Source: Paramecium tetraurelia
Lineage: Eukaryota
NCBI GenBank assembly: GCA_000165425.1
Contig: CT868019.1
Coordinates: 496,001-560,000 of the forward strand
Reading direction: 5' to 3'
DNA: 64,000 nt
Positions 11,619 through 57,639 of this stretch are shown here, in pieces. The notes beneath the pieces were generated by a model. That model was not told where the DNA came from, did not search any database, and worked only from the letters and a program-made list of their open reading frames with translations. Each line of letters starts with the position of its first letter. Positions within the stretch are counted from its first letter, which is position 1. The position numbers and the translations under genes are program-made.

Positions 11619-13304
11619 TCATTACAAATTCTCTAATAATGCAAGAAATTCATTCTCTTCAATTAAACCATCCTTATTGTCATCACAAGAGGTTAAAATT
11701 TCTTACCAAGCATTATTATCAATTTAAATTCCACCAAATATCTCCTGTATTTCTGATCTGGAAATAGTACCATTACCATCCAAATCAAAAAGCCTAAATG
11801 CAGCTCTCAGACTTTCTTTCAATATTCGTTTCTCTTACATAACTGAAGCAGTAATAAATTCAGTAAAATCGATTTTTCCAGAATCATTAGTATCCATTTG
11901 ACTCATAATCTCTTTTATCATGTTTTAGGAAGTTATTTAATTTATATTGACCATGAGCATTCCTTGAAGTATTTCTTCTTCAGATAGTACACCATCTCCA
12001 TTATTGTCAAGTCTTTTAAAAGCCTCTAAGCATTTTTCGCATTCTTCTTTTTTAAGTGTTTATATTGTAATAAATTGGTAGATCGCCACTCTTAAATTAT
12101 TATAGCCTTTAAATTAAGTGATATTTCTGAAAAAGGTTTAGTCAAAATTTAAACTCTTCTAAGATTACATTTAAATCCAACTATGACTCATTGCCTCCTT
12201 CATAGAAATTCTTTTGTTTGGATCTTTTTCAATCATGAGTTTAATCAAATCAAGAGCATCCTGGCTTATCCTTTAAATAATTTATGCTTTTTAATGCTTT
12301 ATTCATATAGTACCATTAAATTCAATTTTCGCTTATTAAGCTAGTTGCAAAGTTTCATATCGGTTTTTTCCTCTAAACGGAGCCTTTCCGATTAATAATA
12401 TATAAAGAATCACACCACATGACCAAACATCCACTTTCTCATCGTATCCATTGGATCTTAGAATTTCAGGGGCTAAATAATAAGGAGTGCCAATTTTAGT
12501 TGTGAGCTTTTTGGACATCATCTTTTCACTTGCTCCGAAGTCAATAACTCTCAAATTCGAATTGATGTCTAAAGTATCAAATAATATGTTTTCAGGCTGA
12601 CAAATATCATATTTATCATACTTTAAGGTCTCTATGGACAATCTTTCTTTCATGGCAATATATCATGGCAGACAATATTTATTTCATATATGTTTTTGCT
12701 ATTTCTTCTGAATAATTAGTTATTGTTCTGACCCTGTCTAAGAGTTCCCCTCCATCTAAGCATTCAGTGATTATATAGAAATGTTGGTTATCACTGAAGA
12801 GTTCAAGAATTTTCACTATATTTGGATGATCTAAGGTTTTTAGTATTTCAGTTTCTCGGAATAATAGAGATTCATTCTCGATTGATTATCTGATAACAAC
12901 CTTTGCAGCCCTTATCAATTTGGTTTTTAAATGCCTAACTTAATACACTTCTCCAAAGCCTCCTTGGCCTAATTTCTTTATTATTTCATAATGGAATAGA
13001 AATTTCTCGCCATCATTCTATTTTCTGATCAATAAATTAGGAGATAATTGTAGATCTGATTGATATTTTATTTGAGGATTTGAACAATAAGAACCAGAGT
13101 TACTTTCAGGGCTCTCCTAATTTAAGGCCCTAACTTCATTTTAAATTATTTTTAGTTATTCAGAAGTTGCTTATTTTTATACATTCTCCTCTTGGATTGC
13201 TTAATCAATAATTCCATCCACCTATTTAATAGTATCCTAAGCTAAAATTATGAGATGTCAATACCTTAATTGTCAACTTAAGACTTATAAATACAATTTC
13301 CCAT
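11619..13304 (-). CDS. Calcium-dependent protein kinase (CDPK) with N-terminal MGNC acylation motif and four EF hands
   Basis: MGNCIYKS start; LGQGGFGEVY, HRDLK/PEN (25-nt intron 12597-12621), DFG, GTPYYLAPE, DVWSCG; EF loops DNNGDG, DTNDSG, DLDGNG, DDNKDG; TGA at 11619-11621. Confidence 0.93.
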
Positions 13305-13513
13305 TAAGAATTTACTAAAATTGCGTAATAATATATTTTTATGGTTATGAATAAATTTATAAAATATTGGGTTTTTTAAGTTGAAATCTTCTTAAAGATT
13401 CTTAGAATCAATTTTCTATAATGTTTTAAATTTATATACACTATGTTTATGGAATATAAATGCAATTGATATTTTCGAACAAAATAAATCATTTAAATCA
13501 ATAATTAATTGTT

Positions 13514-14673
13514 ATGCTTCACATTCCAGACGTAGTAATTGGTATTGAAAGAGCCAATCATAAACATTTCGATGACATCTACGAAACCTAAAAACTAGCA
13601 AACCCTGTGAAAATATCCATGATTAAAATCCAATATAACAAGGAGCATGTCACAGGAGTCAAGCTTAAATACAAAGCAATTGATGGAAGAGTAGCTAAAG
13701 GAACTTGCTCAATGAAGTTCAAATTGCTCGGAGGCTTGCTCTCTGGAACAAAGAAAGAAAAATACAATATCGCTGACGGTAATAATTTAATATAATCATT
13801 CAGATGATTTCATCAAGGAAATACATGGATATGTTGGCACAGAAATTAATCAATTTGGATTTACAACTTACAAAGGAGTTAGTCACAGGTGCGGTATAGC
13901 AAAAGGAGTGTCGTTTTCTCACCACTTTCCACTTCATACATTCTCCTCAGCAAGAGGCTCATACGATAAGTTCTTGGACTTTATAGCCTTTAGAGTAGTA
14001 CCTCTTACTCCTGATTAATTGAAAAAATTGGTAATAAATATAGCAATATTCTAAGGGATTGGGTTAAGGGAATGTTAATGTTGTTGTCACATAAGTCACT
14101 CAACCTCCTCCTCCTCAACCCTAGCTCCAATAGCCAGGATAATACCCTCCACCAGGATAGTATCCTCCCCCAGGATAATACCCTCCACCTGGATAGTATC
14201 CACCTCCTGGACAATACCCCCCACCTGGATAATACCCACCTCCTGGACAATATCCACCACCTGGATAACAACCTCCACCTGGACAATATCCTCCTCCAGG
14301 ATATCCAGGATAACAACCACCTCCTGGGTAATATCCTCCACCTGGACAATATCCACCACCTGGACAGTATCCACCAGGATAATACCCTCCCCCTGGATAG
14401 TACCCTCCTCCTGGATAATATCCACCTGGACAGTATCCACCTGGATAGTATCCACCTCCTGGATAATACCCTCCACCATAAAATACTACTGTTATCATCG
14501 AGTAGCAAGGTCCTCCACCCCCTCAATAACATAGTGGTGGAGGCGGTGCCGTTGCTGGAGCACTTATTGGAGGTGCTTTGATTGGGGCTGCTTTGGCAAA
14601 CGATAATCACCACCATCATCATCATCATGGTCCAAATGTTGTTGTTGTGAAAAAGCACGGTCATCATCATTGA
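13514..14673 (+). CDS. Jacalin-like lectin domain protein with PPPGQY repeats, glycine zipper and His-rich tail
   Basis: KHFDD..ISMIKIQY..VTGVKLKY..DDFIKEIHGYVGTEINQFGFTTYKG..GSYDKFLDFIAFRVVP resembles a jacalin beta-prism. Introns 13779-13803 and 14031-14055; ends ..KKHGHHH-TGA. Confidence 0.75.
14134..14479 (+). repeat. Coding tandem repeat, 18-nt unit (PPPGQY), ~20 imperfect copies
   Basis: CCN-CCN-CCN-GGA-(TAA/TAG/CAA/CAG)-TAY read directly from the sequence, with some shorter PPGQY units. Confidence 0.95.
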
Positions 14674-14727
14674 ATTTATTTAGCCATTATTCAATATATA
14701 TAAGCATTAATATTAAGTATCTTTAAA

Positions 14728-15296
14728 ATGTAAAAAAATGAAATCCATATAGGTATAGAAAGGGAAAACCATAAATTATTTGATGATCTCTAGAAAATGG
14801 ATCTTCTAGCTCAACCCATAACAATTTCTATGATTAAAATTTAATTTACTCATGAGAGAATTTTAGGGATCAAAATAAAATACAGAGGGATGGATGGAAA
14901 AACCATTGTTGGCTAAAGTAGTAGAAAACTCAAAATATTTGGAGTGCATTTTGAGAAGTTTAAAATAGATAAAAGTAAACCAATAACTATTATTAGATGA
15001 TTGTATAAAAGAAATCTTTGGATTTGCAAGTACTTCAATCAATTAGCTCGGATTCAGAACATACAAAGGCCATTAGGTAACTTGTGGATCGCCGAAGGGA
15101 TAAACATTCTCTTACTAAATACCAAATCACACATTCATAGCAGCAAAAGGATCTCATGAAGAATTTTTAGAATATCTTTGTTTTAGAGTAATCCCATTAA
15201 CCCAAGAATAAATAACTAATTTGGTATAATATATATAAATATGATCATCAGGGAATCGATACTCAAATAAATAAATAACAATCCTTTCAAACATGA
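14728..15296 (+). CDS. Jacalin-like lectin domain protein, tandem paralog of 13514-14673 lacking the repeat tail
   Basis: IGIERENHKLFDD..ISMIKIQF..DCIKEIFGFASTSINQLGFRTYKG..GSHEEFLEYLCFRVIPLT aligns to the upstream gene. Introns 14975-14996 and 15224-15251 sit at the same positions and phases. Confidence 0.75.
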
Positions 15297-15396
15297 ATTA
15301 TAAATAATCTTAATCAGAATTTTAAATATACTTAAGGCTACTTATTTATAATAATTAAATTATGAGAAAAATAAATTTTTAATTTCATATTTCTTC

Positions 15397-51902: not shown

Positions 51903-54900
51903 ATGTCTGAGAGTGAAAATTTCAAATTAAGAAGAGAAATTATACAGCTCAAAAAACAAATTGAGTAATTGCGAGAAGACGGTCGCTAGAAAGATTAAAG
52001 AGTCGCATTTTTGGAAGCAGAATAAGAGTTTCATTAGGGGAGATATGAGGAATAGAAGGCAAAATATAATGATTGCTTTACCAGAATGAGAGAATTAGAA
52101 AAGATGGTTAATAGGGATGATGCATATACAAAAGAGACCTTAAAGAATTAATTAGATAAAGCAAAGGATGATTTAGATAGAGAGAAGGCAGCTGTTCAAT
52201 AATACATCGATTAATTGGAGAAGGTGAAACTTGAAAATGGTAATCTGATGTGGCAATTGACATAATTATCGTTGAAATACAAGGATGAAAATATAGTCAA
52301 GGATGAATTCCATTACAGAGATGAAGTTTAGGATAACAGAGAAAAATTGAAGAATTTGGTGGAAAAAACAAATGCTTTGAATTAGGCCATTGAAAGATTG
52401 AGTGCTGAAAACAGAGTGTTGAGAAAGATGGCAGGAGTTCCAGATGATTATTAATTTGAATTGGATGATGTGATTTAAGAAGGATAATTGTAAGTAGAGA
52501 AGTACAGAGCTCAAGTGATTGAATTAGAGAGAGAAGTGGAAGAATTGGAAGAAGAGAGAGCAAGGTTGAGAAGAAAATTGAGAGAATAAGTTGCTGGAGG
52601 TGAAGTGAATTTGGAAGAATTCGATACTTAATCAAATAATCAATTGAGAAAGGAAAATTAGGAATTGAGAAGTAAAGTAAAGATGTTGGAGGAAGAAAAT
52701 GCCCATATTCGTTAAAATTAATAAGATTATGGAGCTATGGGCATGGGCACGTAGTAAGGAATTATGAGAATTACTAATGATCAGATGTAAGAAATGATGT
52801 AGAAATAATAACAGGAACTAAAAGAACAGCTTTAAGAGATAGTCAAAACTATGAAAGGGTAAAACTATTAGGAGACTACATAAGTCAAATAATCAATTAT
52901 TTCATAAAAATAAGTTGTTGATACAACTGGATTGGATAAATTAAGTGTTCCTCCTAATCCTATCCCAGGAGCATTTGGAAATTATAATGATATTAAAGAA
53001 GGTTACAGTTAGCGATTTAATGTTAGATTTCCAGTAGATATGTCCTCAGCATATGGGGATTCAGGTATGGATCAGATGTAATTGAAATACGAATTAGCAT
53101 CATTGCAATTGTAGAATATAGAGACCTTGAGATTATTGCAACAGAAGGAAGCTGAGTATACCAATTTATTATAAGAAGTTACTACAATTAAGGAAGATAT
53201 AAAGGGCAAGTGTTTGTTGGTTTAAGACCAATTGTTTGTGAAGTATATTGAGGAGAGAGACAAATTTAAGGTGATGTATGGAGAAATCCAAGAGAAATAC
53301 AAGGCTTAATTGGATTTGAATGTGGAAGCCAAGATTAAGTTAGCTCATTATGAGGATTTTATGAGAGACAGAGAGAAGCCAAAGAAGGATTTGGAAGACA
53401 AGTTGGGGGAGATGGCTAAGAGAACTGCAATTTTAGATGTCAATTTGATCAAATTATCAAGAAAGTATGATGCATTGACTGAAGAATATAAATAAATGAA
53501 GACCAGTTATACAATAGTAGAGAGTGAGAGTATGGCAAAGGAGAAGGAATTGTTAGAAAAAATATATAATTTGCTTTCATGGAAGAAATCAGCAGAAGAA
53601 CATATGAAGGTTATGATCAAAGAATTAAAGAATTCAGTACCATCTGATTTATTCAACAATCTTAGACAAAAGTTGGAATACACTTAGGATAAATTGGCTA
53701 ATGCCCAATTGAAAGAGGCAGAGTTCTAAAAGAGAATTGCAACTCTTGAAAGTCATGAGAGAGAAGCATTTGAAAGAGGAGAGAGAGTAAGGTAATTGGA
53801 AGAAGAATTAGTGGAAATTCAATTAGAAGAAGAAGTGATTAAGAAAAGATTGTAGAGTTTTGATCCTGCTTTTGATAAATATGTTAAGATATATGAACAC
53901 ATTGTAGAGTTTATTAAGATTAAAAATATATCGGTTATAGAAATATTCAAATTATTCGATGAGAATGGAGACAACAAGATTTCAAGAAGTGAATTCACCA
54001 CAGCTATTGGTAACATTGGAGTTCCTGTCAATAATGACGATATGGAAATTGTATTCATGTTTGTAGACTTAGATGGAACTGGCTAAATTGAATATTAAGA
54101 GTTCATTCGAAAACTTAAGAGATCAGGAATCAATCTCAGAAAACCAGAAGATTAATTGCTATATCAATTATATAATGCAATCAAGGAGTCAGGATATGAC
54201 TTAAGATCTGCTTTCTAAGCATTTGATACTAATTGTGATAATGTCATCTCCAAAGCAGACATGAAAGAAGCACTTCTTTAGATGAATATAAAACATGATC
54301 AAAAAGCTATTGATTATATCTTTAGAATGGCAGACACTAGTGGAGATAATCAAATCAACTATGAGGAGTTTTATGTATTATTTGATGAAATTGTTAAAAG
54401 CGAGTTAATTAATTAAGGGAAATCAATCTAACTAACCTTAGATATTAAGTATCAAATTATGTGTAAATTGGATCAATCAATTAAAGATTAGAGATTAACA
54501 TTACTTGATGTATTTAACATGATAGATAGAGATGGAGATCAAATTATTACATTAATGGAATTTTAAGCTCTATTCAGAGAATTAGAGGGAGGTATCGCCC
54601 CTGATTTGATTAGATAACTGTTTGATTAGATGGATTAAGATCGCAATGGTCAAATAAGTTATAATGAAATGTTAAATTATTTAAGAACGGCAAAGACAGA
54701 AGAGGAGAAATACCAGAAGTTGCAATTTATTTAGTAAAGAACAGAACAACTGAAAAGTTTACAGGAAGCAGATGTCAATCTTCAAAAAGCAAAACTAGAA
54801 AATAAAGGATAAACATTAGAAGATAGATTAAAAATGAAAATAAGCATATTAGAAATGAGGGAGAGAAATGCACATTAAAAATGTGAAGTTCTACTCAACT

Positions 54901-57639
54901 AATTAACTAATACGGAGTTAAAACTAAAGGAAACAACAAAGACTTTATTTGAACTATAAAATTAAATGGAGAAATCCAATGATACTTTCTATAGAGATAG
55001 AGAGGAAAAGCTTATGTTGTTGGAAAGATTGAAAGGAGCATTATCCAGAGAAGAAAGCGAAAAAATGACTAAGCAAATCGAATAATAGAGATTGACCATT
55101 TCTGATTAAAATAGTGCCATCACAACGTATAGACAATTGTATGATACTGCAGTCATGTAGACTAAGAGTATGAAATTAACTATAGAAAAAATAAAAAATG
55201 ATACGGACACTATGTAGTAAACAATAAAAGAATTACAGGCAATATCAGATTAGAATATGATGATTGGCAAGTTGTATCATCATCTCATGGTTGCAAGATG
55301 GCATGAGGCATAAACTAATCAGAAGTATGAGAAAGTCTTGGATGAATTAAGAAAACTCAAGTTGTAATCTGAATCATATGATACAACAATTCTTAAACAA
55401 TCATAAGAAATTATTTCATAAAATACGATCTTTTCAGAACAAATTAAATCGTACGAATAATAACTCACTGAACTCAAATTAAAAATATTACCTACTGTTA
55501 CTTTACAAAGAGTTGAAGAATAAGCGAAAAGAGTCAAAGAATTGTCAGATATGAAATCTGAGGTTGAAAGACAAAACAGAGAATTGAGAGACAGGTTTTA
55601 TGAATTACAATTAAAGGCAGATTATTTTGATAATTACAAGGAGAAATTAGATAATCTAGAGAGAATCTTAAGATAAAATAATCCTGACGAATTAAGTTAA
55701 TAAATTATAACAGTTAGTTAAAAATTATCTGATGAAAAAATAGAATTGCTTAGGGTTAGAAGGGAGATGTAAGTTAGTGCGGAAAAGCAAGAATACTATT
55801 AAAGATTAAATAAACAATACACTGATACTATTAAGAAGTTAGAATATGAATTAGCACATGCTGATTTGGACTTAAGAAAAAGAGAAGAAGATTGGAGGAA
55901 GAGATTCTATGAACAAAGAAAAACTATTTTTGCCTAATTAGGACTCATTGAAAAAGGAGATATAAAAGAGTTTTCTTAAAAAAATACAGATGCTAGCAAA
56001 ATGCTTATTGATGCAATTTAGAAAAAGTAGAATTAGCAGACTGAATACCAAAATCAGCCAACTGAATAATAGTAAATAGAAAATTCACAACTATAAAGAA
56101 GAATATAAGAATTAGAAGCTTAAGTCAAGGCAAAAAGCATAGAAATTGAAGCGTATGTAGAAAGATAAAAGATTGTTGCTGGAGGTTCCACTGTGTTTTA
56201 ATAATAACAATTAGAAGATTATACAAAGACTTTATTAGCTCAAGAAGCTGAAAAAGTTTCTACTGCGGGTTAATAAATGTTAAAGGCTATGCAGGAAATA
56301 ATTAAGGACAAGGATAGAGAATTAGAAAGAAAGGAATAGTAGATAGAGGCTATGCGACAGGAGTCTTTAATGAATAAGAAAAAAGATGTTTCAGAAATAT
56401 AAAGATTAACTGATTTATTACATAAAAGAGATTAAGCACTACAAGATGCAAACAGAATGGGTAATAACACAAATTTCAATAATTTCTCATATCTGTAATA
56501 AAATTAGATGTCTGAATTATAACCAGTATTGATAGAGAAATATTAATAATAATTATCAGAAAAGGATAGGAAAATAAAAGATTTAGAATTATCATTCGAA
56601 GCAGAGAAAAATGCTTTGAAGAAAGTAAAAGAACAATTAACGAAAACTATTGCAATGAAGGAATAATTAGAAATAGATTTGGAGAGCGAAAAGAAATTGA
56701 ATGAAAACATGTAATATGTATCGAAGATTGAGAAATTATAAAATTTAGTGAATGAAAAAAATAGTTTATTGGCTTCATAAAAGAAAACTATTATTGCTTT
56801 AAAAGAAGAATAATTTAAAATAGCAGGAGAATCTATGAATAAGGAATAAACTTACAAAAGTAAAGAAGCTAAATTAAATAATAATACAACTGAGCTTGAA
56901 TTTAAATTAACTAAAATGGTTAATGAAACGAAATTATTAAAAGAGGAAATCAAAGATAAACAGAAAAAGTTAGAATAACTGTAAGAAAAGGAAATTCAAA
57001 ATAGAGCATAAATGACAGATCTACAAAAGAAAAACTCAGAACTTAAAGCAATTATCTAAGCTGGAGGTGGCAAATTAGAAGAGTAAGATTAAACAGTAAC
57101 AAATATTTAAGCAAAACTTTAATAGTTTAACTAAATGTCAATGGAGAAAGTATAATTAGAAAGAGAAATTCAATTTTTAAAGTAATAAGGAGGAACAAGA
57201 GAATTATTTGATAAAGATGCTACATTAAAACCATCAACAGGGTTATATTTTAAGACATTCTCAGATTTGTTGGATACTCTGAAATAATATTTAATAACAA
57301 AACCTAAGTTTGATTTACTTTTTGAATTTAAAAAGTTGGACAAATAGTCAGAATATATACTGCCAATGGCAAAGTTCTTTGAAGTGTTATCCAATGCTGG
57401 AGTAAAACTGAAAACAAGGTATAATGTTGTTTAATATTTTTAGAGATCAAAAATTAGTGATTGACACGATTAAGACAAAGGATGAGAATGCAGATTACTA
57501 TTTCAAGTTTTACTATGTTTATAAGGGTTGGGCAGACAATATTGTTCAAACTGATTTAGAAGATAAATCTTAATTATAGTAATAGCCACAAATCCAATAA
57601 CAACAGTCTTAAAAGTTTAGTTTAAAAAATAAAAAATGA
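51903..57639 (+). CDS. CEP290: CEP290-like transition-zone coiled-coil protein (~1,900 aa) containing six EF hands
   Basis: Segments recalling CEP290: ENRVLRKMAGVP, EKYRAQVIELEREVEELEEERARLRRKLR, RTAILDVNLIKLSRKYDAL, LKNSVP, QAISDQNMMIGKLYHHL. One micro-intron near 57419-57442; upstream exons possible. Confidence 0.7.

What the first reader, a model, noticed from the sequence alone, without database searches (positions are those of the whole stretch)
13514..14673. Chimeric lectin: jacalin-like domain + ~20x PPPGQY + glycine zipper + poly-His tail
Seen: after the lectin-like domain the code-6 translation gives ~20 PPPGQY units, then GGGGAVAGALIGGALIGAALA, then NDNHHHHHHHGPNVVVVKKHGHHH-stop, with no signal peptide. 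Known: Pro/Gly/Tyr repeats in galectin-3 and annexin A7/A11 drive self-association and, for the annexins, ALG-2 binding; GxxxG zippers mediate membrane or oligomer contacts; His tracts bind metals or sense pH. Inference: a cytosolic glycan-sensing, condensate-forming protein analogous to galectin-3 but on a jacalin fold, possibly sensing damaged food vacuoles. I do not recognise this architecture from ciliates.
Basis: partly seen in the sequence, partly recalled or inferred. Interest (0 to 1): 0.72.

Follow-up and report, generated by a model that had tools for sequence, protein, structure and literature searches.

The report
Jacalin-head protein with proline stalk
This is a real, expressed Paramecium gene for a jacalin-type lectin-fold head joined to a long proline/tyrosine repeat and a conserved glycine-rich, histidine-rich tail, one of a small uncharacterised Paramecium family.

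Summary
Under the ciliate code, three exons (13514-13778, 13804-14030, 14056-14673; two 25-nt introns) give a 369-aa protein. It has a ~160-aa N-domain, 20 PPPGQY-type units (13 exact), GGGGAVAGALIGGALIGAALA, and a His-rich end. RNA data show both introns removed and the repeat exon joined to the head exons.

The head is a divergent jacalin-like domain:
- A local HMM of 16 bona fide jacalin repeats scores it 59.7 bits, against 11.0 for the best of 1000 shuffles.
- The tandem paralog and other relatives pass Pfam PF01419.
- A paralog model matches jacalin-related lectins at Z 19.4.

The architecture is not unique. Paramecium paralogs and an environmental ortholog carry the same head, P/Q/Y stalk, Gly-rich hydrophobic segment and His tail. 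The tail residues are kept despite many synonymous changes.

Function is open. The canonical GxxxD sugar loop reads DKFLD. The hydrophobic segment is only borderline for a membrane helix, and AlphaFold gives the tail no structure. I read it as a cytosolic β-prism head on a stalk, anchored or self-assembled through the tail. It is a new variant of a known kind, of moderate interest.

The parts
13505..14716 (+). mRNA extent (short 5' leader, about 43-nt 3' UTR)
   Evidence: intron-less contigs of runs X3 (13505-14716) and X10 (13510-14716) have 0 other letters. Oligo-dT RNA reads of X19 and X20 cover 13466-14719 at up to 431x, almost all with the first mate on '-'.
13514..13778 (+). Exon 1 (ATG at 13514; residues 1-88 plus the first base of codon 89)
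13779..13803 (+). Intron 1, 25 nt, GTA...CAG
   Evidence: One search gives the sequence; 25 letters are left out at 13778 in the X3 and X10 contigs. Loose read ends at 13778 and 13803 continue into the neighbouring exon (8-10 reads per run and site).
13804..14030 (+). Exon 2 (residues 89-164), C-terminal half of the jacalin-like domain
14031..14055 (+). Intron 2, 25 nt, GTA...AAG
   Evidence: 25 letters are left out at 14030 in the X3 and X10 contigs. Loose ends at 14031 and 14055 match the adjoining exons (7-11 reads).
14056..14673 (+). Exon 3 (residues 165-369 plus TGA): stalk and tail
   Evidence: 20 in-frame TAA/TAG codons are read as Q.
13565..13997 (+). Jacalin-like β-prism domain (residues 18-153 by HMM envelope; interrupted by intron 1)
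   Evidence: 59.7 bits, E 1.3e-17, against a local HMM of 16 non-ciliate jacalin repeats; best of 1000 shuffles 11.0 bits; the exon-2 profile hits proteins that Pfam scores as Jacalin; a paralog model matches jacalin-related lectins.
13940..13954 (+). Loop D143-K-F-L-D147, aligned to the jacalin-type GxxxD sugar-binding loop
   Evidence: One search aligns the family profile to GYWLD (residues 121-125) of chain 1jot_A. One search places the target's DKFLD in the same columns. One search gives the residue numbers. The sugar-binding role of this loop is recalled knowledge.
14104..14487 (+). P/Q/G/Y low-complexity stalk with 20 PPPGQY-type units (Tandem Repeats Finder array 14137-14477)
   Evidence: One search counted a 132-residue stretch that covers this part: P 61, Q 28, G 20, Y 18.
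14482..14499 (+). Short conserved motif NTTVII before the hydrophobic segment
   Evidence: the aligned motifs are NSTTIVEV in P0056, NQTIIVN in P0026 and NETIIIT in L001.
14536..14598 (+). Gly-zipper hydrophobic segment GGGGAVAGALIGGALIGAALA (residues 325-345)
   Evidence: Kyte-Doolittle 19-aa mean 1.83, additive Hessa sum +2.05, ends 24 residues before the C-terminus. Conserved as GGGVMGALIGGALLGAALS in L001.
14599..14670 (+). His-rich tail NDNHHHHHHHGPNVVVVKKHGHHH
   Evidence: The pattern His-run, N-V-V-x-V, His-run recurs in P0026/P0058, in the P0056 group and in L001.
14728..15296 (+). Tandem paralog (exons 14728-14974, 14997-15223, 15252-15296): 172 aa, head only, no stalk or tail
   Evidence: the spliced product is identical to P0053 (P. 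tetraurelia GSPATT00005754001). PF01419 30.6 bits; the 22-nt intron is removed in an X3 contig; depth 1-42x.

Best explanation
The locus is a genuine, well-expressed Paramecium gene. The window's neighbouring gene product is letter-identical to a P. tetraurelia protein. The gene encodes a 369-aa modular protein made without a signal peptide. It has three parts.

(1) Head. Residues ~6-160 form a divergent jacalin-type β-prism I domain. This is the binding module.

(2) Stalk. About 130 residues of roughly 46% proline are organised as 20 PPPGQY-type units. I take this to be an extended, disordered polyproline-II-like spacer. Its regularly spaced tyrosines could give weak multivalent self-association.

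(3) Tail. A conserved C-terminal module runs NTTVII, poly-Pro, an uncharged 21-residue Gly-zipper segment, a His run, NVVVV and a second His run.

Most likely mechanism (inferred): the tail fixes the protein, either as a tail-anchor-like insertion into a membrane or by zipper-mediated self-assembly. The stalk then holds the β-prism head out in the cytosol for multivalent binding of a ligand. That ligand may be a sugar, but it need not be, because the canonical sugar loop is altered.

Shown: the gene model, its expression, the head's family and fold (the fold through a paralog), and conservation and purifying selection of the whole architecture. Inferred: topology, anchoring or assembly, and ligand.
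For: Gene and expression:
- Contigs of X3 and X10 lack exactly the two 25-nt introns and span 13505/13510-14716.
- Oligo-dT RNA reads of X19 and X20 give 29-431x and 18-388x across the gene, nearly all in one orientation.
- Loose read ends at all four splice sites continue into the partner exon.

Head:
- The exon-2 profile (A1) found 41 proteins at E<=1e-3 among 1.84 billion.
- Of 17 of these scanned with Pfam, 12 hit PF01419. Eleven reached the 22-bit cutoff, including multi-jacalin proteins at 108-426 bits. The other 5 were He_PIG/Big_9 proteins matched only over short stretches.
- The spliced target head scores 59.7 bits (E 1.3e-17) against a local HMM of 16 non-ciliate jacalin repeats. The best of 1000 shuffles scores 11.0 bits.
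- The tandem paralog P0053 scores PF01419 30.6 bits.
- The family profile hits PDB jacalin-type chains 2jz4 (7.2e-7), 5gqt (2.8e-4) and 1jot (0.005).
- The AlphaFold model of paralog P0056 has pLDDT ~90 over residues 1-160, with 12 strands. The target head matches P0056 at 106.6 bits.
- That model matches ZG16, artocarpin, banana lectin and jacalin in Foldseek at probability 1.00 and target-normalised TM 0.66-0.86 among the rows shown. VIA-align gives Z 19.4, rmsd 1.5 Å over 134 residues with 4akd_A.

Architecture conserved:
- P0056, P0009, P0054 and P0057 (344-362 aa, four Paramecium species) and P0026 and P0058 (337 and 338 aa) have head, P/Q/Y stalk, Gly-rich hydrophobic segment, His run, N-V-x-V and a second His run.
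- Environmental contig L001 encodes an ortholog with introns at the same two positions. It has about 12 (P)PPPGQY units, GGGVMGALIGGALLGAALS and a His tail.

Selection:
- In the tail module, 39 of 64 aligned residues are identical, and 22 of those 39 use different codons.
- In exon 2, 59 of 75 residues are identical, and 34 of those use different codons.

Topology and anchor:
- There is no N-terminal hydrophobic run, and the transcript starts just before the ATG.
- The only hydrophobic segment (KD 1.83) ends 24 residues from the C-terminus.
- Its G/A positions follow GxxxG spacing: G328-G332-G336 and G337-G341-A345, read from the sequence.

Stalk:
- AlphaFold gives it no structure.
- Paramecium epiplasmins carry Pro/Tyr-alternating Y-rich domains that their authors propose mediate protein-protein binding (PMC2709106, passages of sections 6 and 15).
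Against: - The target's own head could not be scanned or folded whole. The tools take only contiguous translations, and the single exons gave 0 Pfam families at E<=10 and no relevant PDB match. Its fold is therefore inferred through paralogs.
- Sugar site: the first Gly of the GxxxD loop is Asp (DKFLD). The paralogs also change the last Asp (EEFLE, DKWLN). The N-terminal Gly-rich loop that I recall from mannose-binding jacalin-related lectins reads IGIERANHKHFDD here.
- Anchor: the additive Hessa sum is +2.05, which is marginal. It is +3.25 in L001, +4.01 in the P0056 group and +7.25 in P0026, whose segment contains K, E and R. A true membrane helix is therefore not conserved across the family.
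- AlphaFold predicted no helix for the segment in either the target tail (mean pLDDT 44, no secondary structure) or P0056 (pLDDT ~30).
- There are no localisation, binding or membrane data.
- PPGQY-type repeats also occur in unrelated bacterial and eukaryotic proteins, so the stalk on its own says little.
Confidence: 0.5

Rival explanations
1. One reading: a freely soluble cytosolic lectin that works like galectin-3 on a jacalin fold. The head binds glycans exposed on damaged food vacuoles. The PPPGQY region drives condensation, and the His tract tunes this by pH or metal.
For: The jacalin fold and the lack of a signal peptide are supported. The stalk is Tyr/Pro/Gly/Gln-rich and unstructured in the models. 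The N-terminal domain of galectin-3 is reported to mediate liquid-liquid phase separation (PMC7060198; I saw only the search listing and the start of the abstract). The target keeps the last Asp of the GxxxD loop and an aromatic residue at the Trp position (DKFLD against GYWLD).
Against: The first Gly of GxxxD is replaced, and the paralogs lose the Asp as well. The model gives no role to a conserved, uncharged hydrophobic segment near the C-terminus. The repeat lies C-terminal to the fold, not N-terminal as in galectin-3. No data here bear on damage, glycans, condensates or metal.
Confidence: 0.15
2. The β-prism head is a protein-binding module rather than a sugar-binding one. The protein is an adaptor or scaffold that recruits a partner to wherever the tail sits.
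For: The sugar-loop signature is degenerate in the target and more so in its paralogs. Structural and sequence neighbours include jacalin domains in chimeric, non-classical contexts: nitrile-specifier protein 5gqt and rice JAC1 7ywg.
Against: The fold and its closest structural matches are overwhelmingly sugar-binding lectins. The target alone among the Paramecium paralogs keeps the terminal Asp. No partner is known.
Confidence: 0.2
3. A cortical or membrane-skeleton component. The Pro/Tyr-rich stalk co-assembles with other Pro/Tyr-rich Paramecium cortex proteins such as epiplasmins, so the protein is mainly structural.
For: Epiplasmins have Y-rich domains in which Tyr and Pro alternate. Their authors propose these give protein-protein binding and copolymerisation (PMC2709106, passages). 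The target is fairly abundant in RNA.
Against: The target has no epiplasmin central domain. Its repeat is P-x-x-Y (PGQY), not the P-X-Y or P-h-X-Y motifs quoted in that paper. Composition-only similarity is weak, because such repeats occur in unrelated proteins.
Confidence: 0.1
4. Not a functional gene: a decaying duplicate or an ORF produced by a simple repeat.
For: The full-length protein was not found in the protein collections searched, although the neighbouring paralog is annotated.
Against: Spliced, polyadenylated-library RNA covers it at up to 431x. The frame is intact through 369 codons. The ortholog L001 keeps the same frame, introns and tail, with many synonymous differences.
Confidence: 0.02

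Closest known systems
Jacalin-related lectins with a β-prism I fold (artocarpin, champedak CMB, frutapin, banana lectin, Heltuba, jacalin, mammalian ZG16)
   Same: Same domain family and fold. Relatives pass PF01419. The paralog model aligns at Z 17-19.4, rmsd 1.4-2.4 Å, over about 126-138 residues. Like the plant mannose-type members (recalled), it is made without a signal peptide.
   Different: Only 12-25% identity. The GxxxD loop reads DKFLD, and the Gly-rich first loop is absent. A roughly 200-residue stalk and tail is attached. Sugar binding is untested.
Paramecium 'Jacalin-type lectin domain-containing proteins' (for example P. tetraurelia GSPATT00000779001 = P0056 and GSPATT00020674001 = P0058, plus orthologs in P. 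primaurelia, pentaurelia and octaurelia)
   Same: Same overall architecture: head, P/Q/Y-rich stalk, Gly-rich hydrophobic segment, His run, N-V-x-V and a second His run. They are true paralogs: 106.6 and 43-50 bits to the target head.
   Different: The stalk units differ (PPPPMQQGYV-type, or Q-rich without regular units). Their hydrophobic segments are weaker (KD 1.32 and 0.98). None is experimentally characterised as far as my searches show: one search found 0 papers for four gene ids, and searches found nothing on ciliate jacalins.
Chimeric jacalins of plants (rice JAC1 dirigent-jacalin, 7ywg; Arabidopsis nitrile-specifier protein jacalin-Kelch, 5gqt)
   Same: A jacalin domain fused to an unrelated module in a protein without a secretion signal. 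Both appear among the structural or sequence matches.
   Different: The fusion partner here is a low-complexity stalk plus a hydrophobic, His-rich tail, not a folded enzyme-like or Kelch domain.
Galectin-3 (chimera-type galectin)
   Same: A lectin-fold domain joined to a Pro/Gly/Tyr-rich repeat region, made without a signal peptide. The repeat region is reported to drive phase separation (PMC7060198, listing and abstract start only).
   Different: Different fold (galectin β-sandwich, not β-prism). Its repeat is N-terminal. It has no hydrophobic segment and no His tail. It works like a candidate analogue only and is not a family member.
Tail-anchored membrane proteins
   Same: No signal peptide. 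A single uncharged hydrophobic segment ends 24 residues from the C-terminus.
   Different: Hydrophobicity is borderline (KD 1.83, additive Hessa +2.05). Eight of the 21 residues are Gly. AlphaFold predicts no helix. The segment is weaker in the paralogs.
Y-rich domains of Paramecium epiplasmins
   Same: Pro/Tyr-alternating low-complexity regions in the same organism, proposed to mediate protein-protein association (PMC2709106, passages).
   Different: No epiplasmin core domain here, and the repeat unit is different.

Membership tests
Jacalin-like lectin domain (Pfam PF01419) | The target's own sequence matches the Pfam model at or above the 22-bit gathering score | tested here: inconclusive
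   Only contiguous translations can be scanned. The single exons P0001, P0002 and P0003 gave 0 families at E<=10. The spliced 165-aa head could not be handed to the Pfam tool.
Jacalin-like lectin domain (Pfam PF01419) | Close relatives match the Pfam model at or above the cutoff | tested here: met
   Tandem paralog P0053 scores 30.6 bits. P0005 32.6, P0026 33.6, P0038 35.1, P0025 26.8, P0031 23.3, P0009 22.8, P0034 22.8; P0011 scores 20.1, below the cutoff.
Jacalin-like lectin domain (Pfam PF01419) | The target head is significantly similar to bona fide jacalin domains | tested here: met
   A local HMM built from 16 repeats of P0023, P0024, P0033 and P0036 (Pfam Jacalin 108-426 bits) scores the spliced head 59.7 bits, E 1.3e-17. 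The best of 1000 shuffles scores 11.0 bits. The window's exon-2 profile hit those proteins at library-wide E 6.0e-8 to 2.4e-4.
Jacalin-like lectin domain (β-prism I fold) | Three-fold β-prism of 12 strands | tested here: met
   Tested on paralog P0056, not on the target. pLDDT is ~90 over residues 1-160, with 12 strands. Foldseek probability 1.00 to ZG16, artocarpin and jacalin. VIA Z 19.4, rmsd 1.5 Å, 134 residues. The target head matches P0056 at 106.6 bits.
Jacalin-related lectins (functional lectins) | GxxxD sugar-binding loop (its role is recalled; the alignment was tested) | tested here: not met
   GYWLD (121-125) of 1jot_A aligns to the family columns. In those columns the target has DKFLD, P0053 has EEFLE and P0056 has DKWLN. 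The Asp is kept in the target and the Gly is lost.
Jacalin-related lectins (functional lectins) | Measured carbohydrate binding | not testable with these tools
   Needs recombinant protein and a glycan array, ITC or similar.
Tail-anchored membrane proteins | No N-terminal signal sequence or other transmembrane segment | tested here: met
   The best hydrophobic window of the whole protein is the C-terminal segment. The transcript starts 4-9 nt before the ATG.
Tail-anchored membrane proteins | One transmembrane helix within about 30-40 residues of the C-terminus | tested here: inconclusive
   The position fits: 24 residues follow the segment. KD is 1.83, but the additive Hessa sum is +2.05. AlphaFold gave no helix. 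No dedicated transmembrane predictor was available.
Glycine-zipper Pfam families (recalled names: Gly-zipper_Omp, Gly-zipper_YMGG, Rick_17kDa_Anti) | Sequence match to a Pfam glycine-zipper model | tested here: not met
   P0003 gave 0 Pfam families at E<=10. Only the (G/A)xxx(G/A) spacing is present, as read.
Galectin-3 / chimera-type galectins | Galectin carbohydrate-recognition domain | tested here: not met
   The head is a jacalin β-prism. No galectin family appeared in Pfam for any relative.

The most novel reading that the evidence does not exclude
The conserved roughly 60-residue tail (NTTVII strand, poly-Pro, Gly-zipper, His run, NVVVV strand, His run) is a previously undescribed switchable anchoring or assembly module. 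Protonation or metal loading of the two His runs would control whether the Gly-zipper inserts into a membrane or zips into oligomers. A cytosolic lectin head on a 130-residue stalk would then be deployed on acidifying or leaking compartments such as food vacuoles. That would make this a ciliate-specific damage or cargo sensor built on a jacalin fold, a functional analogue of galectins.
Probability: 0.1. Interest if true: 0.7.

Novelty: new variant of a known kind. Interest (0 to 1): 0.42.

Why it matters
Jacalin-type domains are well known from plants and from mammalian ZG16. Nothing has been published on them in ciliates in the literature I could search. This gene and its paralogs show that Paramecium keeps a small family in which a signal-less β-prism head is tied to a Pro/Tyr stalk and a conserved Gly-zipper/His tail under purifying selection.

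If the head binds sugars, this would be a cytosolic lectin system in a phagotrophic protist. Cytosolic glycan recognition, in vacuole damage, glycogen handling or symbiont compartments, is almost unexplored there. If it does not bind sugars, it is an example of a lectin fold re-used as an anchored adaptor.

The target itself appears to be missing from the protein sets searched, although it is transcribed about ten times more than its annotated neighbour. That is a practical annotation point.

Tried and rejected
- Pfam on the single exons found 0 families at E<=10. phmmer of single exons against PDB found nothing relevant. Splitting the domain removes the signal.
- The word-index homology searches with P0001 and P0002 ('longer') found none. 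With P0003 ('longer'), 153 hits at E<=1e-3 among 8000 scored candidates. The six I read match only through (Q)YPPG-type repeats. The target's own full-length protein did not appear.
- No whole genome is held for this window. Earlier-findings look-ups were empty.
I did not pursue it.
- A genome-contig scan with the environmental relative P0064 found no relative.
- The look-up of sequencing runs listed no holder on record as RNA among the indexed runs. The evidence for expression comes from the laid runs.
- AlphaFold of the stalk and tail (P0003 with alignment A4) gave mean pLDDT 44 and no secondary structure. This does not decide between helix, strand and disorder.
- The N-domain tree (19 rows) left the relations among the six ciliate subfamilies unresolved. 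Whether the tail was ancestral and lost in the tandem paralog, or gained, is therefore open.
No result exists.
- GPI-anchor reading rejected: there is no signal peptide, and 24 polar residues follow the hydrophobic segment.
- Collagen-like reading rejected: Gly occurs every sixth residue, not every third.
- WW-domain PPxY and ALG-2-type PPYP motifs (definitions recalled): 1 and 0 matches.
Full report
**Observation**

The window is AT-rich, with GC between 0.22 and 0.33 per 2 kb. The region reads open only when TAA and TAG are glutamine. Translating 13514-13777, 13806-14030 and 14056-14673 under table 6 gives 88, 75 and 205 residues. Exon 3 alone uses 20 TAA/TAG codons as Q.

Joined at two 25-nt GTA...AG introns (13779-13803 and 14031-14055), the CDS is 1110 nt, or 369 residues plus TGA.
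- 13 exact PPPGQY and 20 units in all, counting PPGQY, PPPGQQ, PPPGY and PGQQ. Tandem Repeats Finder reports 14137-14477, period 18, 19.9 copies.
- GGGGAVAGALIGGALIGAALA at residues 325-345.
- NDNHHHHHHHGPNVVVVKKHGHHH-stop.

**Is it a real gene?**

Yes. I laid four public runs on 13400-15350.

- Two assembled-contig runs (X3 and X10, whose kind is only guessed as RNA) each hold one contig. These span 13505-14716 and 13510-14716, have no other letters, and leave out exactly 25 letters at 13778 and at 14030. They are the spliced mRNA.
- Two oligo-dT RNA-seq runs with 58-nt raw reads (X19 and X20) cover the gene at 29-431x and 18-388x. Almost all reads have the first mate on '-'; for example 420.4 against 1.98 in bin 14126-14191.
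- No read-level joints were listed for these short reads. Loose ends at 13778, 13803, 14031 and 14055 (7-11 reads each) continue with the first or last letters of the partner exon. Depth dips in the two intron-bearing bins.

The contigs begin 4-9 nt before the ATG, so no upstream signal-peptide exon exists.

**Surroundings**

A tandem paralog follows directly at 14728-14974, 14997-15223 and 15252-15296 (introns of 22 and 28 nt). It is 44-52% identical per exon. It encodes 172 aa and ends 14 residues after the head, so it has no stalk and no tail.

Its spliced product is identical to P0053, which is P. tetraurelia GSPATT00005754001 (A0BVE1), named by UniProt 'Jacalin-type lectin domain-containing protein'. 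The window is therefore most probably P. tetraurelia macronuclear DNA. The paralog is transcribed at 1-42x in the same runs, and its 22-nt intron is removed in an X3 contig.

**What the head is**

Split into exons, it gives nothing: 0 Pfam families at E<=10 and no relevant PDB sequence match.

A profile of the two exon-2 sequences (A1), searched against 1.84 billion representative proteins, found 41 hits at E<=1e-3. I fetched 24 of these and their cluster mates and scanned 17 with Pfam.
- 12 hit PF01419 Jacalin, 11 of them at or above the 22-bit cutoff.
- These include non-ciliate multi-repeat proteins at 108-426 bits.
- The other 5 were He_PIG/Big_9 proteins, matched over only 17-30 profile positions, and I set them aside.

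On the script machine I built an HMM from 16 repeats of the four non-ciliate jacalin proteins. The spliced target head scored 59.7 bits (E 1.3e-17, residues 18-153) and P0053 scored 71.9 bits. The best of 1000 shuffles of the target scored 11.0 bits. P0053 itself passes PF01419 at 30.6 bits. A profile of the ciliate family hits PDB jacalin-type chains 2jz4 (7.2e-7), 5gqt (2.8e-4) and 1jot (0.005).

The tools do not accept a spliced protein for folding. I therefore folded P0056, a P. tetraurelia paralog with the same architecture that matches the target head at 106.6 bits, using a 19-row alignment.
- Residues 1-160 have pLDDT around 90 and form 12 strands. Everything after that is below 50 or only moderate.
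- Foldseek returns ZG16, artocarpin, horcolin, frutalin, banana lectin and jacalin at probability 1.00, with target-normalised TM 0.66-0.86 among the rows shown.
- VIA-align gives Z 19.4, rmsd 1.5 Å over 134 residues with champedak mannose-binding lectin 4akd_A. 171 chains have Z>=8.

The head is thus a divergent jacalin-type β-prism. For the target itself the fold is inferred by homology.

**Sugar site**

In the profile-to-1jot_A alignment, GYWLD (residues 121-125) falls on the family columns. In those columns the target has D143-K-F-L-D147, the tandem paralog EEFLE, P0056 DKWLN and the environmental P0064 EKHLD.

That this GxxxD loop, together with an N-terminal Gly-rich loop, makes the sugar site is recalled knowledge, not a call. 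The target keeps the Asp and an aromatic residue but has lost the Gly. Its first loop reads IGIERANHKHFDD. Lectin activity is therefore possible but not implied.

**The stalk and tail are a conserved module, not an accident**

Reading the retrieved sequences and the alignments A3 and A4:
- The P0056 group (P0056, P0009, P0054, P0057; four Paramecium species; 344-362 aa) and the P0026 group (P0026, P0058; 337 and 338 aa) share the target's order of parts. After the head comes a P/Q/Y-rich stalk, then N-[ST]-T-[IV]-I-V, a Gly-rich hydrophobic segment, a His run, N-V-[VN]-[VLI]-[VFY] and a final His run.
- P0025 keeps only the His end. P0034 and P0071 end in VGMAIGIFKLITHHH. P0038 and P0031 have Q-rich tails only.

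One metagenome contig, L001, encodes a diverged ortholog of the target with 79% identity in exon 2. Its introns of 22 and 23 nt lie at the same two positions. It carries about 12 (P)PPPGQY units, KNETIIITQ, poly-Pro, SGGGVMGALIGGALLGAALS, NDHHHHHGHGH, ANVVVIGN and HGRHHHHHHKHH-stop.

Codon comparison shows the following.

| Region | Aligned residues | Identical | Identical but with different codons |
|---|---|---|---|
| Exon 2 | 75 | 59 | 34 |
| Tail module | 64 | 39 | 22 |

This is the pattern of purifying selection on both head and tail.

A tree of the heads did not resolve the order of the six ciliate subfamilies. Whether the tandem paralog lost the tail remains an inference from parsimony.

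**What the tail might do**

The 19-aa window GGAVAGALIGGALIGAALA is the most hydrophobic in the protein. Its Kyte-Doolittle mean is 1.83. It is uncharged and ends 24 residues from the C-terminus, the geometry of a tail anchor. However, the additive Hessa sum is +2.05, and 8 of the 21 residues are Gly.

| Protein | Kyte-Doolittle mean | Additive Hessa sum |
|---|---|---|
| Target | 1.83 | +2.05 |
| L001 | 1.55 | +3.25 |
| P0056 group | 1.32 | +4.01 |
| P0026 (segment contains K, E, R) | 0.98 | +7.25 |

AlphaFold gave no secondary structure to the tail in either job. The (G/A)xxx(G/A) spacing (328-332-336 and 337-341-345) is real, but no Pfam glycine-zipper model matches.

I therefore hold two sub-readings about equally: a weak tail-anchor-like membrane insertion, or a zipper-type self-assembly element. 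The paired His runs could act as a metal or pH handle. A four-copy complex prediction of the last 47 residues could not be queued.

**The stalk**

One search counted a 132-residue stretch covering the stalk: 61 P, 28 Q, 20 G and 18 Y. It is modelled as unstructured. Repeats of the (Q)YPPG type occur in unrelated bacterial and eukaryotic proteins, so the unit is convergent and not diagnostic.

In Paramecium itself, epiplasmin Y-rich domains alternate Pro and Tyr. Their authors propose that these give protein-protein binding (PMC2709106, passages of sections 6 and 15). The N-terminal region of galectin-3 is reported to drive phase separation (PMC7060198, listing and abstract start only). Both are analogies, not tests.

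**Comparison and novelty**

- Membership in the jacalin-like domain family is met by sequence (through relatives and a local HMM) and by fold (through a paralog).
- The functional-lectin signature is not fully met.
- It is not a galectin.
- Tail-anchor status is inconclusive.

Proteins with this architecture are already in public databases with an automatic jacalin label. I found no paper on jacalin domains in ciliate protists. 'jacalin' with 'Paramecium' returned 4 papers, with 'ciliate' 36 (15 listed, none on jacalins of ciliate protists), and with 'Tetrahymena' 2; none was relevant by listing. 'jacalin-like' with 'tail-anchored' returned 0, and four GSPATT ids returned 0.

The target's own full-length protein was not found in any protein search. 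Only 80-123-aa ORF fragments were found, the P0004 cluster.

**Verdict**

This is a new variant of a known kind, and interest is moderate.

Noticed in passing
window 14728-15296 (+): A tandem paralog of the target, 172 aa, with the jacalin-like head only. Its exon 3 is just 14 codons. It is identical to P. tetraurelia GSPATT00005754001 and is transcribed about ten-fold less than the target in the same runs.
   Followed up: yes
window 13514-14673 (+): The target's full-length protein was not found in the protein collections searched, although its annotated neighbour is there. Only 80-123-aa ORF fragments (the P0004 cluster, from transcript-like contigs) match it. It may be missing or mis-modelled in the public annotation.
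   Followed up: partly
L001 1-1226: An environmental contig with a diverged ortholog: same two intron positions, about 12 (P)PPPGQY units, a conserved Gly-zipper and a longer His tail. It probably comes from another Paramecium species.
   Followed up: yes
proteins P0064, P0059, P0011 (environmental, 157-172 aa): Intron-less ORFs under the standard code, with a jacalin-like head (PF01419 22.9 bits) ending in PPHKHHLKVIIIKS, a miniature His-plus-hydrophobic-strand tail. They score closer to the target head (99.8 bits) than the Paramecium P0026 group does (50 bits). Their organism is unknown, and they were not found in the bacterial and archaeal genome collection.
   Followed up: partly
window 51903-57461 (+): A single 1853-codon open frame under the ciliate code, rich in coiled-coil-like sequence, with a central cluster of EF-hands (EF-hand_7 111.8 bits). 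It accounts for the strong purine skew at 52-58 kb.
   Followed up: partly
window 12303-13257 (-): Exons of a Ser/Thr protein kinase (Pkinase 122.7 bits on the 12616-13257 piece), divergently oriented just upstream of the target.
   Followed up: partly
proteins P0083, P0091, P0099, P0075, P0076, P0088: Unrelated bacterial and eukaryotic proteins carry long (Q)YPPG-type repeats, for example behind signal-like N-termini in acidobacterial proteins. The hexapeptide is a recurrent, convergent low-complexity unit.
   Followed up: partly
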